DNA of 64,000 nt from a phage, in assembly GCA_018296565.1 (NCBI GenBank), contig GCA_018296565.1_3935.1. The stretch is one strand, 5' to 3'. Below, piece after piece: positions 13,564-24,102 of the stretch. Positions within the stretch are counted from its first letter, which is position 1; each line of letters begins with the position of its first letter. Under the pieces are notes generated by a model that was given only the letters and a program-made list of their open reading frames with translations, had not been told where the DNA came from and made no database searches. The position numbers and the translations under genes are program-made.

Positions 13564-14916
13564 ATGTGGAATCCAATTGTTAATGTAGATATTACATTGA
13601 ACACCGCAGGAACTACAAGAGAAGGTTTTGGCTTGCCACTATTCTTAGCTTCAACAGACAACTTTGAAGAAAGAGTGCGTGGCTACACTTCCTTAACTGA
13701 AGTTGCTGAAGATTTCGATGAAAACTCTGCTGCATATAAAGCTGCTAAACAACTTTGGAGTCAGACTCCTAAAGTAACTCAGCTTTATATTGGTAGACGT
13801 GCTATGCAGTACACTGTATCAATTCCTGATGCCGTTGCCGAAAGTACAGACTACTCAATTACTGTAGCTGCTGGCGGTGGAATTTCTCAACCATATCAGT
13901 ATACAGCAGTGGAATCAGATACTGCTGAGAAAGTTTTGCAACAGTTTAAAACACAGATTGAAGCTGACCCAACAATCAAAGACAAGGTTTCTGTGAACGT
14001 AACTGGTAGTGGTGGTTCTGCCACAATGGTTATCACCAAAGCTGGTGACAATGACTTTGTAAAAGTAACAACCACAGCACAGACTGTATATATTGCAAGT
14101 ACAACTGCCGATACAGCATCAACCGCTCTAGCAGCTATTGAAGCTTATTCAACTGACTGGTATTTCATTGCAGCAGAAGATAGAACTCAACAGTTTGTCT
14201 TAGCAATGGCTTCTGAGATTCAAGCTCGTAAGAAAATCTTCTTTACAGCTAACTCAGATGTAACAGCACTACAGGGCACAGAATTGGCTAGTGCAAATGA
14301 TGTTCCAGCACAGCTTGCTAAGAGCATGTACACTCGTACAGTTTGTTTGTGGCATCACACAGCAGCAGAAGACTATCCAGAAATGGCATACATTGCTTAT
14401 GGTGCTCCATATGATGCAGGGTCAATTGCTTGGGGTAATGCACAGCTCACTGGTGTAGCTGCTTCTCTACAACCAACTAATAAGAGACCACTAACAAGTA
14501 TTCAGAAATCTGCTTTAGATGCACGTCACTGTAACTTTATTGACCTTGATGGTGGTGTTCCAGTGGTTCGTAGAGGGATTACTTCTGGTGGGGAATGGAT
14601 TGATATCATCCGTGGTGTTGACTGGTTAGAATCAGACCTGAAAACTGCTCTGAGAGACTTGCTAATTAACCAGAAGGGTGGTAAGATTACTTATGATGAT
14701 ACTGGTATTACTCGTATTCGTCAAGTCATTGAAACCTCTCTGCAAAGAGCAGTCAACAGAAACTTCCTGTCATCTTACACAGTTAATGTTCCTAAAGCCT
14801 CTCAAGTTGCTTTGGCAGACAAGAAAGCTCGTATCCTGAAAGATATTACCTTCGCAGGTATCTTAGCAGGGGCTATCTTGGATGTTGACTTGAAAGGTAC
14901 AGTGGCTTACGAATAA
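13564..14916 (+). CDS. Tail sheath protein (putative)
   Basis: 450 aa ORF followed by a 148 aa tube-sized ORF, chaperone pair and tape measure: the canonical contractile-tail gene order. Confidence 0.55.
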   Translation: MWNPIVNVDITLNTAGTTREGFGLPLFLASTDNFEERVRGYTSLTEVAEDFDENSAAYKAAKQLWSQTPKVTQLYIGRRAMQYTVSIPDAVAESTDYSITVAAGGGISQPYQYTAVESDTAEKVLQQFKTQIEADPTIKDKVSVNVTGSGGSATMVITKAGDNDFVKVTTTAQTVYIASTTADTASTALAAIEAYSTDWYFIAAEDRTQQFVLAMASEIQARKKIFFTANSDVTALQGTELASANDVPAQLAKSMYTRTVCLWHHTAAEDYPEMAYIAYGAPYDAGSIAWGNAQLTGVAASLQPTNKRPLTSIQKSALDARHCNFIDLDGGVPVVRRGITSGGEWIDIIRGVDWLESDLKTALRDLLINQKGGKITYDDTGITRIRQVIETSLQRAVNRNFLSSYTVNVPKASQVALADKKARILKDITFAGILAGAILDVDLKGTVAYE

Positions 14917-14931
14917 TAGAGGTAAATTGGA

Positions 14932-15378
14932 ATGGCTATGTATCAGCAATATTCCCCTAAAGACGTTGTATGTAGCTGGAATGGTATTGCCATTGAAGGC
15001 TTTGCCCCAGACTCTTTCTTACGTCTACAGAGAACATCACCACTCGTGACACCAGTCGTTGGTGCAGGTGGTCAAGTTGCTCTGACAAGAAATGCAGACA
15101 AGACAGGTACTATTGAGATTGAGCTAATGCAGACTTCTCTCTCTAACCAGATGCTTTCTGCAATTCAAGCTAAACAAGACAATATGGAACTTGAAGAAGA
15201 TATCTCTTCTAACTTCGTAATCTACGACCCATCAGGCTCTGTTCTGGCAACTGGTATTAATGCTTGGTTGCAGGAATTACCACAGATTGAACTTGGTCGT
15301 GACCAGAACTCTAAAACTTGGATTTTTGGTTGTGAGAAGTTAGACTACACTTCTACAATTCCAGCGTCAAGTGTTTAA
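14932..15378 (+). CDS. Tail tube protein (putative)
   Basis: 148 aa ORF downstream of sheath, followed by a strong terminator. Confidence 0.5.
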   Translation: MAMYQQYSPKDVVCSWNGIAIEGFAPDSFLRLQRTSPLVTPVVGAGGQVALTRNADKTGTIEIELMQTSLSNQMLSAIQAKQDNMELEEDISSNFVIYDPSGSVLATGINAWLQELPQIELGRDQNSKTWIFGCEKLDYTSTIPASSV

Positions 15379-15389
15379 TAAATCCTATA

Positions 15390-15425
15390 AGGGGGAGACT
15401 TTAAAAGGTCTTCCCCTTTTTTGTT
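15390..15425 (+). terminator. Rho-independent terminator after tail tube gene
   Basis: GC-rich hairpin gggggagac...gtcttcccc followed by TTTTTT. Confidence 0.55.
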
Positions 15426-15451
15426 TCTTTTAAAAGTATTAAGGAATCACA

Positions 15452-15850
15452 ATGAAAACAGAATCTAGAGTAATTAATGGTAAGAAAGTAAATATCATTC
15501 TGCTTGGGGCAAGAGATGGTATTAAGATGTCTATGAAGTTGGGTAAGATTGTTGTCCCAACATTTGCACAGATGCTGTCAAGTCTGACTGATAAAGATAA
15601 GAAAGAAGCTCCAATGGTTCCATTTAAAGAACTTGTTGAAGCTTGTTTTGACAGAATTGAAGAAATTAACCTAGAAGAAATGGCTACATTACTATTTCAA
15701 GGGGCAACTGTTGATGACTTCCCACTTAATATTGATACGTACTTCCAAGCAAACTATGGTGAATTTATTGATTACTTAGCATTTGCTCTGGAGGCAAACT
15801 TCGGAAGTTTTTTCGAAGCAAGCATTTTCAAAAGCCTAACTTCTCAGTAA
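15452..15850 (+). CDS. Tail assembly chaperone (G-like)
   Basis: 132 aa acidic ORF immediately upstream of tape measure gene; contains slippery heptamer near 3' end. Confidence 0.5.
   Translation: MKTESRVINGKKVNIILLGARDGIKMSMKLGKIVVPTFAQMLSSLTDKDKKEAPMVPFKELVEACFDRIEEINLEEMATLLFQGATVDDFPLNIDTYFQANYGEFIDYLAFALEANFGSFFEASIFKSLTSQ
15808..15814 (+). other. Candidate -1 programmed ribosomal frameshift site T_TTT_TTC
   Basis: X_XXY_YYZ heptamer in the zero frame of the 15452 ORF. The -1 frame is open from here into the 15853-16092 ORF, giving a G/GT-type fusion. Confidence 0.45.
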
Positions 15851-15852
15851 AC

Positions 15853-16091
15853 ATGGGTAACACTCTACAGACACCACTAACTGATGCTGCTGTAGAGGCA
15901 ACCTATGAAGAAGCAGACGAGATGAAATTTGTGCTTGCTATTTATGGTATGGAAGGGTGTAAAGAAACACTTGACCAACTCTTTGCTATGACATTCTCTG
16001 ATTTATTATCATTGAGACAATTTCTTGAAATTCAGAGGTCGTATAAAGAGGAAATTGCTTACAACGAACTTAGAAGAGCAGGAAAAATGTA

Positions 16092-16092
<1 letters not shown>
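15853..16092 (+). CDS. Tail assembly chaperone frameshift extension (T-like)
   Basis: 79 aa ORF in -1 frame relative to upstream chaperone, ends at tape measure start. Confidence 0.45.

Positions 16093-24102
<8,010 letters not shown>

What the first reader, a model, noticed from the sequence alone, without database searches (positions are those of the whole stretch)
15452..16092. Candidate -1 programmed frameshift joining the two tail chaperone ORFs
The heptamer T_TTT_TTC (15808-15814) lies in the zero frame near the end of the 15452 ORF. The -1 frame is open from that point straight into the downstream 79-aa ORF. This reproduces the conserved G/GT chaperone arrangement immediately upstream of the tape measure gene.
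Basis: partly seen in the sequence, partly recalled or inferred. Interest (0 to 1): 0.45.

Follow-up and report, generated by a model that had tools for sequence, protein, structure and literature searches.

The report
Tail chaperone frameshift in Felix-O1-like phage
The two small genes just before the tail tape-measure gene of this Felix-O1-like phage are almost certainly joined by a -1 ribosomal slip on T_TTT_TTC to give a short and a long tail-assembly chaperone; this is real and very well conserved, but it is already annotated and published for this phage group.

Summary
T_TTT_TTC lies at 15808-15814 in the zero-frame register (AGT TTT TTC) of the 132-aa ORF 15452-15850. The -1 frame is open from 15772 to the TAA at 16090-16092, which overlaps the tape-measure ATG.

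The window is a Felixounavirus (99% identical to phage NBEco005). The upstream ORF is a Pfam Phage_TAC_15 tail-assembly chaperone, flanked by sheath and tube genes upstream and the tape-measure gene downstream.

Comparative evidence for the frameshift is very strong:
- All 24 protein clusters of relatives examined (down to about 23% identity, GC 35-65%) keep NNT TTT TTY and an open -1 frame of 76-123 codons.
- In 23 of the 24 clusters the -1 region has no usable ATG.
- The window's ATG at 15853 has no Shine-Dalgarno sequence and is buried in a hairpin.

There is no 3' stimulatory structure at canonical spacing. There is a GGAGG 13 nt upstream, and its GAGG core is over-represented across the family.

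The frameshift is not new. GenBank records for Meda and Mijalis carry the joined CDS. Genome announcements from 2015 and 2017 and a 2025 paper describe it. No experimental proof was found. Verdict: confirmed, supported, already known, low interest.

The parts
15389..15428 (+). Context: intrinsic-terminator-like hairpin (13 pairs) plus T tract between the tube-position gene and the chaperone gene.
   Evidence: The homologous position is annotated 'terminator' in phages Meda and Mijalis.
15441..15445 (+). Shine-Dalgarno AAGGA of the chaperone gene, 6 nt before the ATG at 15452.
   Evidence: SD duplex energy is -6.1 kcal/mol, about the median of the window's gene starts.
15452..15850 (+). TAC-N / G-like tail assembly chaperone ORF, 132 aa, 14.85 kDa (zero-frame product).
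   Evidence: Pfam PF21822 Phage_TAC_15 at 70.9 bits against a cut-off of 22. phrog_1613. Molecular weight.
15790..15794 (+). Internal Shine-Dalgarno-like GGAGG, 13 nt 5' of the heptamer; candidate 5' frameshift stimulator (inferred).
   Evidence: The GAGG core is present in 19 of 24 relative clusters against 9.4 expected from local codon usage, P about 3.5e-5. The stimulatory spacing for -1 shifts is 9-14 nt according to PMC5009743.
15808..15814 (+). Slippery heptamer T_TTT_TTC (Ser-Phe-Phe codons AGT TTT TTC); site of the -1 shift.
   Evidence: Conserved as NNT TTT TTY in all relatives.
15797..15837 (+). Nucleotide-conserved island around the heptamer. It is dual-coding: zero frame NFGSFFEASIFKS, -1 frame KFFRSKHFQKP.
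   Evidence: It is the only stretch of the 641-nt query that blastn aligns to Erwinia phiEa21-4-like phages (query 346-386, 92.7% identity), although the proteins are only about 40% identical.
15772..15850 (+). Overlap zone in which both the zero frame and the -1 frame are open.
15814..16092 (+). -1 frame extension (T-like / TAC-C part): 92 codons plus TAA. Together with 15452-15814 it gives the predicted 213-aa, 24.3-kDa fusion, with junction ...EANFGSFF|RSKHFQKPNFSVNMGNT...
   Evidence: The T part is homologous across the family. phrog_4963.
15853..15855 (+). ATG that makes the downstream region look like a separate 79-aa gene. It is probably not a genuine start.
   Evidence: No SD: +0.7 kcal/mol, the weakest of 52 gene starts. 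It is paired in a predicted hairpin. It is ATA in L017, and it is absent or displaced in Mooglevirus, Hafnia, Erwinia and Yersinia relatives.
15852..15907 (+). Stable hairpin just 3' of the zero-frame stop. It starts 37 nt after the heptamer, so it is not a canonical frameshift stimulator.
   Evidence: -22.2 kcal/mol, z = -4.85. 96.8% of cells paired, with 2 compensatory pairs in Felixounavirus plus Suspvirus.
16092..18314 (+). Tape measure protein gene. Its ATG overlaps the TAA of the -1 frame (TAATG).
   Evidence: PF20155 TMP_3 and phrog_4036.

Best explanation
This is the tail-assembly-chaperone pair of a Felix-O1-like myophage, expressed by a programmed -1 ribosomal frameshift. Most ribosomes translate 15452-15850 and terminate, giving the 132-aa chaperone (G-like, TAC-N). 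A minority slip back one base. This happens when tRNA-Phe occupies UUU (15809-15811, P site) and tRNA-Phe occupies UUC (15812-15814, A site). Both tRNAs re-pair on UUU UUU (15808-15813). Translation then continues from CGA at 15814 in the -1 frame to the TAA at 16090-16092, giving a 213-aa fusion (GT-like, TAC-NC). By analogy with lambda gpG/gpGT, the shared N-terminal domain would coat the tape-measure protein and the rare C-terminal domain would recruit the tube protein, so the fixed shift frequency would set the ratio of the two. Shown here: the sequence anatomy, the gene identities, the family-wide conservation of heptamer and frame, and the lack of start signals for the downstream part. 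Inferred: that the slip occurs, its frequency, and the roles of the domains. The likely enhancer is the GGAGG 13 nt upstream pairing with the 16S rRNA 3' end of the elongating ribosome, because no 3' structure lies at working distance. This last step is inference.
For: 1. Register and open frame.
2. Uniqueness: this is the only one of 68 in-register heptamers in the window followed by a long -1 ORF.
3. Gene identities and order (sheath, tube, TAC, T, TMP).
4. Close and mid-distance relatives: every one of 40 loci (Felixounavirus, Suspvirus, Mooglevirus, Hafnia, Erwinia, Pectobacterium and Yersinia phages, and the Vequintavirinae phage CR8 at about 26% identity) keeps T_TTT_TTC in register with an open -1 frame.
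5. Distant relatives: 79 of 79 IMG/VR loci recovered with a peptide pattern that is neutral to codon choice have NNT TTT TTY (72 TTTTTTC, 7 TTTTTTT), with 76-116 open -1 codons. Together with the window and the GenBank relatives these form 24 clusters at 60% aa identity, all keeping the heptamer. The chance of this from local codon usage is about 1e-20 if the clusters are treated as independent.
6. Nucleotide island: a 41-nt island around the heptamer is 92.7% identical between phages whose chaperones are about 40% identical.
7. No independent start: no SD before ATG 15853. In 23 of 24 clusters the first -1-frame ATG is 34% or more into the T region, or absent.
8. The T regions align across the family.
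9. U_UU.U_UU.C is listed among efficient, under-represented -1 motifs in E. coli (PMC4066793).
10. A joined CDS is annotated in Meda and Mijalis and described in PMC4319497, PMC5543628 and PMC12846349.
11. The SD-like GAGG is enriched at a spacing inside the 9-14 nt window (PMC5009743).
Against: 1. I found no experimental detection of the fusion protein in any Felix-O1-like phage; every published statement I read is bioinformatic.
2. There is no 3' stimulatory hairpin or pseudoknot within 5-10 nt, and no Rfam element, so the efficiency is unknown and could be very low.
3. In this particular lineage an ATG follows the zero-frame stop after 2 nt, so some termination-reinitiation cannot be excluded.
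4. The conservation statistics treat clusters as independent, which overstates significance.
5. The peptide pattern used required the Phe-Phe dipeptide, so that set tests codon choice, not retention of Phe-Phe itself.
6. Five of the 24 clusters lack the GAGG, including the Hafnia, Erwinia and Yersinia relatives and CR8.
Confidence: 0.88

Rival explanations
1. These are two independent genes. The 79-aa protein is made on its own from ATG 15853, by termination-reinitiation after the TAA at 15848-15850, and no fusion is needed.
For: In the window and in most Felixounavirus genomes an ATG lies 2 nt after the zero-frame stop. Most GenBank records annotate two separate CDSs.
Against: There is no SD: +0.7 kcal/mol, weaker than all 52 long gene starts. 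The ATG is paired in a -22 kcal/mol hairpin. It is ATA in a 98%-identical relative, and missing or displaced in Mooglevirus, Hafnia, Erwinia and Yersinia relatives. In 23 of 24 clusters the first -1-frame ATG would delete 34-93% of the conserved T region, or there is none. This model does not explain the conservation of the heptamer at rare codons.
Confidence: 0.05
2. Transcriptional slippage. RNA polymerase adds one extra U on the T6 run, and standard translation of that mRNA subpopulation gives the same fusion.
For: The site is a homopolymer. Seven relatives have T7 or longer. A weak hairpin-plus-T-run motif at 15787-15805 was flagged as terminator-like. An insertion of one U gives exactly the fusion frame, as the T7 sequence of phage CL1 shows.
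Against: Known productive bacterial slippage uses runs of about 9 A or T (PMC5009743), and this run has only 6. The run sits exactly in X_XXY_YYZ register on a motif with measured ribosomal shiftiness (PMC4066793). The co-conserved SD-like element at 13 nt makes sense only for a ribosomal mechanism.
Confidence: 0.04
3. The shift occurs elsewhere in the overlap, for example single-tRNA slippage on the U_UUC tetramer at 15826-15829 (ATT TTC), rather than on the heptamer.
For: U_UU.Y is the second most shift-prone tetramer in E. coli (PMC4066793). This tetramer lies inside the conserved island in Ounavirinae.
Against: According to the same paper, tetramers need a strong stimulator and are about 10-fold weaker than heptamers. 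The tetramer is not conserved outside Ounavirinae, whereas the heptamer is universal.
Confidence: 0.02
4. Artefact: a single 213-aa gene broken by a homopolymer sequencing error (true T7 read as T6).
For: One GenBank record (phage CL1, OK040806) has T7 and a single 213-aa CDS.
Against: About 300 independent phage records and 28 IMG/VR contigs share the T6, two-frame layout. T7 and T5 versions are absent from IMG/VR. Distant relatives with unrelated flanking sequence have the same two-frame layout.
Confidence: 0.01

Closest known systems
Phage lambda gpG / gpGT (-1 frameshift at G_GGA_AAG; Levin et al. 1993; Xu, Hendrix and Duda 2004, 2013, 2014, as summarised in PMC5009743)
   Same: Two overlapping ORFs lie immediately before the tape-measure gene. 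The short product comes from standard decoding and the long product from a -1 slip on an X_XXY_YYZ heptamer near the end of the first ORF. The downstream ORF has no start signals of its own. The stimulators are weak or absent.
   Different: The heptamer differs (T_TTT_TTC, slipping two tRNA-Phe rather than tRNA-Gly and tRNA-Lys). The phage is a contractile-tail myophage with sheath and tube genes upstream. Neither product matched a solved structure by sequence, and the chaperone belongs to Pfam Phage_TAC_15. The product ratio and binding partners are untested here.
Annotated 'tape measure chaperone frameshift product' of Felix-O1-like phages Moogle, Mijalis, Mordin and Meda (PMC4319497, PMC5543628; GenBank KY654690, MH586731)
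   Same: It is the same locus, the same gene order and the same heptamer. It is essentially the identical feature in sister genomes at 70-98% protein identity.
   Different: Nothing of substance differs. The window's lineage additionally has an ATG right after the zero-frame stop, which leads most annotators to call two separate genes.
TAC-N / TAC-NC of Pseudomonas phage Adele and other Vandenendeviridae, with an invariant GTTTTT motif also reported in 231 Andersonviridae (PMC12846349)
   Same: It has a conserved poly-T slippery motif near the 3' end of TAC-N, and an uninterrupted -1 frame across divergent genera. The paper explicitly extends this to the family that contains Felixounavirus.
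   Different: In the passages I read, that paper reports the motif as GTTTTT and does not describe the in-register heptamer, the upstream SD-like GAGG, or the presence or absence of 3' hairpins.
E. coli dnaX -1 frameshift (A_AAA_AAG with a 5' SD-like element and a 3' stem-loop)
   Same: An internal SD-like sequence lies within the 9-14 nt window upstream of a tandem-slippage heptamer (13 nt here).
   Different: There is no 3' stem-loop at working distance in the window. The heptamer and tRNAs differ. The shifted product here is longer, not shorter. The efficiency is presumably a few percent rather than 50%.
Phage P2 gpE / gpE+E' (myophage tail chaperone frameshift; mentioned in PMC5009743)
   Same: It is a contractile-tail phage with a -1 frameshifted chaperone pair located between the tube and tape-measure genes.
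   Different: The protein family is unrelated at the sequence level, and the slippery sequence is different (from my own knowledge; not tested here).

Membership tests
G/GT-type frameshifted tail assembly chaperone (Xu-Hendrix-Duda class) | Two small ORFs located between the tail tube / major tail gene and the tape-measure gene. | tested here: met
   Sheath 13564-14916, tube-position gene 14932-15378, TAC 15452-15850, T ORF 15853-16092, TMP 16092-18314.
G/GT-type frameshifted tail assembly chaperone (Xu-Hendrix-Duda class) | The second ORF is in a shifted frame that is open back into the end of the first ORF. | tested here: met
   The -1 frame is open from 15772 to 16089, giving an overlap of 25 codons.
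G/GT-type frameshifted tail assembly chaperone (Xu-Hendrix-Duda class) | A slippery sequence in the correct register inside the overlap. | tested here: met
   T_TTT_TTC at 15808-15814, codons AGT TTT TTC. The motif is shift-prone in E. coli (PMC4066793).
G/GT-type frameshifted tail assembly chaperone (Xu-Hendrix-Duda class) | The slippery site and two-frame layout are conserved in relatives despite sequence divergence. | tested here: met
   All 24 of 24 clusters at 60% identity, GC 35-65%. Named phages from several genera and two subfamilies also keep it.
G/GT-type frameshifted tail assembly chaperone (Xu-Hendrix-Duda class) | The downstream part lacks independent translation-initiation signals. 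| tested here: met
   No SD. The ATG is paired in a hairpin. The ATG is absent or far inside the T region in 23 of 24 clusters.
G/GT-type frameshifted tail assembly chaperone (Xu-Hendrix-Duda class) | Both the short and the fused protein are made, in a fixed ratio, and both are needed for tail assembly and absent from virions. | not testable with these tools
   This needs protein detection and phage genetics. No experimental report for Felix-O1-like phages turned up in the paper searches.
Pfam PF21822 Phage_TAC_15 | The score is above the curated gathering threshold over most of the model. | tested here: met
   70.9 bits against a cut-off of 22; residues 9-124 match model positions 1-124 of 127.
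dnaX-type stimulated -1 PRF | An internal SD-like sequence 9-14 nt 5' of the heptamer. | tested here: met
   GGAGG at 15790-15794, with 13 nt of spacing. It is enriched across the family. The function is not tested.
dnaX-type stimulated -1 PRF | A stable stem-loop or pseudoknot starting about 5-9 nt 3' of the heptamer. | tested here: not met
   The 46-66 nt after the heptamer fold at -3.2 to -3.4 kcal/mol with z = +0.95 to +1.36; the 50-nt test gave z = +0.70. The nearest stable hairpin starts 37 nt downstream.
Transcriptional-slippage recoding site | A homopolymer run of about 9 or more A/T. | tested here: not met
   The run is T6. The run-length criterion comes from PMC5009743.

The most novel reading that the evidence does not exclude
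The frameshift of this whole chaperone family (Pfam Phage_TAC_15, at least 24 divergent phage lineages) may be driven mainly by a conserved 5' element. This would be an internal Shine-Dalgarno-like (G)GAGG held at a fixed 13-nt distance from T_TTT_TTY and formed by an otherwise disfavoured GAG Glu codon. The 3' hairpins would be lineage-specific add-ons: strong, 2-8 nt downstream in the 62-65% GC members, and absent in AT-rich Felix-O1-like phages. None of the papers I read on these phages mentions such a 5' element.
Probability: 0.35. Interest if true: 0.3.

Novelty: already known. Interest (0 to 1): 0.15.

Why it matters
Practically, it matters for annotation. Most of the roughly 300 related GenBank records call two separate genes, and some mislabel the chaperone as 'head closure protein' or 'tape-measure protein'. 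The correct model is one gene with two products.

Biologically it adds one more well-supported instance of the G/GT rule in contractile-tail phages, on a Phe-Phe heptamer rather than the lambda Gly-Lys one. If the upstream SD-like element proves functional, this family would be a convenient natural series for studying how 5' and 3' stimulators are traded against genome GC content. None of this changes current understanding.

Tried and rejected
1. Downstream stimulator. Folding 46, 66 and 96 nt after the heptamer and 50 nt in the window and 50 relatives showed nothing at canonical spacing in the Felix group. An Rfam scan of 15300-16300 gave only sub-threshold chance hits.

2. The distal hairpin 15852-15907 as a frameshift stimulator. 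I rejected this because it starts 37 nt after the heptamer. RNAalifold across eight genera gave no consensus structure; the hairpin is confined to Felixounavirus, Suspvirus and in part Mooglevirus.

3. Ribosome-collision idea (a terminating ribosome stalling a follower on the heptamer). The heptamer-to-stop distance varies from 9 to 44 codons among relatives, so this is not a conserved design. It is not supported.

4. Looking for the deposited fusion protein with the search for homologous proteins. Only 124-136-aa G-type proteins came back, so I could not read the exact join coordinates chosen by the Meda and Mijalis annotators.

A profile search of the PDB found no relative.

6. Homopolymer variants. 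T7 and T5 versions are absent from IMG/VR.

7. The weak hairpin 15787-15805 followed by the T run was flagged as terminator-like. I treated it as a coding by-product of Glu-Ala-Asn-Phe codons. It would pair better with GAA than with the observed GAG, so it does not explain the GAG preference.

Full report
**What is in the sequence**

The stretch 15300-16300 and the ORF list show ORF 15452-15850 (132 aa) followed two bases later by ORF 15853-16092 (79 aa). The second ORF is in the -1 frame relative to the first.

The six T occupy 15808-15813 and a C sits at 15814. Because (15808-15452) mod 3 = 2, the zero-frame codons are AGT TTT TTC, which is the canonical X_XXY_YYZ register. Translating the -1 frame shows its last upstream stop just before 15772 and no stop until TAA at 16090-16092. 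That TAA overlaps the ATG of the next gene (TAATG, 16092).

**What the genes are**

The window is a Felixounavirus. A 1.5-kb query is 99.3% identical to Phage NBEco005 and matches 295 phage records. The current taxonomy is Andersonviridae, Ounavirinae.

| Coordinates | Size | Identification |
|---|---|---|
| 13564-14916 | 450 aa | Tail sheath (PF11863; phrog_205) |
| 14932-15378 | 148 aa | Tube-position virion structural protein |
| 15452-15850 | 132 aa | Tail assembly chaperone (PF21822 Phage_TAC_15; 70.9 bits, cut-off 22) |
| 15853-16092 | 79 aa | No Pfam match; phrog_4963 'tail assembly chaperone' |
| 16092-18314 | 740 aa | Tape measure (PF20155) |

The layout is exactly the G/GT layout.

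**Is it more than chance?**

On its own the heptamer is only weakly significant. In 69 long ORFs of the window, 68 of 18,234 codon positions carry an in-register X_XXY_YYZ, so a 25-codon overlap has about a 9% chance of holding one.

Three things lift it well above chance:
- Of those 68 sites, only this one is followed by a long -1 ORF (92 codons; the next longest is 32).
- TTTTTTC is three-fold depleted in the window (9 found against 26.8 expected).
- The comparative data below are decisive.

**Comparative evidence**

Loci from IMG/VR and GenBank cover Felixounavirus, Suspvirus, Mooglevirus, phages of Hafnia, Erwinia (phiEa21-4 type), Pectobacterium and Yersinia, and the Vequintavirinae phage CR8 (about 26% identity). 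Every one has T_TTT_TTC in the same register and an open -1 frame running to the tape-measure gene.

The only part of the 641-nt query that blastn can still align to the Erwinia phages is 15797-15837, at 92.7% identity, although the proteins are about 40% identical.

A profile-based scan then recovered 79 loci. It used the peptide pattern E[AKV]N[FY][GSK][SC]FF, which fixes Phe-Phe but not the codons.
- All 79 read NNT TTT TTY: 72 are TTTTTTC and 7 are TTTTTTT.
- The -1 frame stays open for 76-116 codons, while the +1 frame is usually closed within a few codons.
- Together with the window and the GenBank relatives, these form 24 clusters at 60% identity, spanning 35-65% GC.
- From each locus's own codon usage, the chance that all clusters use a T-ending Ser or Cys codon followed by TTT is about 1e-20. 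This treats clusters as independent, so the number is an overstatement, but the direction is clear. In the 62-65% GC phages these are rare codons.

The -1-frame peptides also align across the family (CKETLDQLFAMTFSDLLSLRQFLEIQ against ATLQELETHWSYDDVLRATALLDMQ), so the downstream part is a conserved domain.

**Does the downstream part have its own start?**

- In the window, ATG 15853 has no Shine-Dalgarno. Its best anti-SD duplex is +0.7 kcal/mol, weaker than all 52 long gene starts (median -6.05).
- It is base-paired at the foot of a predicted -22 kcal/mol hairpin.
- It is ATA in a 98%-identical relative, and absent or displaced in Mooglevirus, Hafnia, Erwinia and Yersinia phages.
- In 23 of 24 clusters the first -1-frame ATG is 34% or more into the domain, or missing.

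The '79-aa ORF' is therefore a lineage-specific appearance, not a conserved gene.

**Mechanism**

The single kind of tRNA-Phe (anticodon GAA) reads both UUU and UUC, so P-site and A-site tRNAs can both re-pair one base back on UUU UUU. Sharma et al. (PMC4066793) list U_UU.U_UU.C among the under-represented E. coli motifs that shift above 0.1% without stimulators. They place H_HH.U_UU.Y among the most efficient heptamers.

The predicted products are 14.85 kDa (132 aa) and 24.29 kDa (213 aa), with junction ...EANFGSFF|RSKHFQKP....

By analogy with lambda (PMC5009743), the N-domain would bind the tape measure and the rare C-domain would recruit the tube protein. This is inference.

**Stimulators**

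There is none at working distance:
- The 46-66 nt after the heptamer fold at only -3.2 to -3.4 kcal/mol, with positive z-scores.
- A 50-nt test gave z = +0.7.
- Rfam finds nothing.

By contrast, several high-GC relatives have strong hairpins beginning 2-8 nt after the heptamer, for example CCGCGAGCG...CGCTCGCGG with a 7-nt spacer.

Upstream, the window has GGAGG at 15790-15794, 13 nt before the heptamer. This is inside the 9-14 nt spacing reported to stimulate -1 shifts (PMC5009743). The GAGG core arises from a GAG Glu codon followed by G. It is present in 19 of 24 clusters against 9.4 expected from local GAA/GAG usage (P about 3.5e-5). Among clusters below 50% GC it is present in 12 of 15 against 5.05 expected.

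I regard this as a plausible conserved 5' stimulator. Its function is untested, and five clusters lack it.

**Rivals**

| Rival | Estimated probability | Main reason it is disfavoured |
|---|---|---|
| Independent initiation or reinitiation of the 79-aa ORF | about 5% | Start-signal data and missing ATGs in relatives |
| Transcriptional slippage on T6 | about 4% | Run length too short (about 9 needed, PMC5009743); SD-like element fits only a ribosomal mechanism |
| Shift at the U_UUC tetramer 15826-15829 | about 2% | Tetramer not conserved outside Ounavirinae |
| Homopolymer sequencing error | about 1% | About 300 independent assemblies share T6; T7 and T5 absent from IMG/VR |

**Is it known?**

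Yes.
- Phage Meda (MH586731) and phage Mijalis (KY654690) carry a joined CDS at this locus; Meda's is noted as 'Tape measure chaperone frameshift product'.
- The Moogle (2015) and Mijalis (2017) genome announcements state the frameshift.
- A December 2025 paper reports a conserved GTTTTT -1 frameshift motif in Vandenendeviridae and in 231 Andersonviridae chaperone genes.
- I found no experimental demonstration for this phage group.

Many records still annotate two separate genes.

**Verdict**

The feature is already known and of low interest. The only modestly new points are the family-wide SD-like element, the contrast in 3' hairpins between AT-rich and GC-rich members, and the hairpin that buries the misleading ATG.

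Noticed in passing
L035:601-1242 (Escherichia phage CL1, OK040806.1 84151-84792): This one GenBank record has T7 instead of T6 at the slippery run, so the 213-aa fusion is encoded in a single frame and annotated as one 'tape measure chaperone' CDS. It is either a homopolymer sequencing error or a natural GT-only variant. T7 and T5 versions are absent from IMG/VR.
   Followed up: partly
window 15852-15907: A stable hairpin (-22.2 kcal/mol, z = -4.85) lies immediately 3' of the zero-frame stop, and the ATG at 15853 is paired in its lower stem. In Felixounavirus plus Suspvirus, 96.8% of cells are paired, with two compensatory pair changes (both in the Suspvirus lineage). The ATG-to-ATA variant keeps the pair. 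It is not present in Hafnia, Erwinia or Yersinia relatives. Its function is unknown; it may suppress spurious initiation.
   Followed up: partly
L098, L104, L108-L113, L118 (about 1883-1915); L079, L084, L086; L103: Distant high-GC relatives of the chaperone gene carry strong hairpins (-19 to -27 kcal/mol) starting 2-8 nt after the same heptamer, which is canonical frameshift-stimulator spacing. The AT-rich Felix-O1-like phages have none.
   Followed up: partly
window 15389-15428: A strong intrinsic-terminator-like hairpin (13 pairs) plus T tract lies between the tube-position gene and the chaperone gene. The homologous position is annotated as a terminator in Meda and Mijalis. It could lower transcription of the chaperone and tape-measure genes relative to sheath and tube.
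   Followed up: partly
window 2-4389, notably 3388-3463: A cluster of 20 phage-encoded tRNA genes includes tRNA-Phe(GAA), the tRNA that decodes both codons of the slippery heptamer. Whether phage tRNA-Phe supply affects the shift frequency is unknown.
   Followed up: no
window, whole (9 sites listed): TTTTTTC occurs 9 times on both strands against 26.8 +/- 4.7 expected from dinucleotide-preserving shuffles. This is consistent with general avoidance of slippery or homopolymer runs.
   Followed up: no
window 15787-15805: A weak hairpin (7 pairs, 2 of them G-U) directly followed by the T run was flagged as terminator-like. It overlaps the SD-like GGAGG and is largely a by-product of the Glu-Ala-Asn-Phe codons.
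   Followed up: partly
GenBank records listed: The annotation of this locus is inconsistent across records. The chaperone is called 'head closure protein / Hc1' (C600M2, VpaE1_ev035, the SUT_S820/S920 records) or 'tape-measure protein' (BPSELC-1). A 98%-identical genome is deposited as 'Campylobacter phage A132' (MG065664), an unlikely host for a Felixounavirus.
   Followed up: no
L017:2894-2961 (IMGVR_UViG_3300045988_004167): In a relative whose chaperone protein is 98% identical, the apparent start of the 79-aa ORF is ATA rather than ATG, with everything else unchanged.
   Followed up: yes
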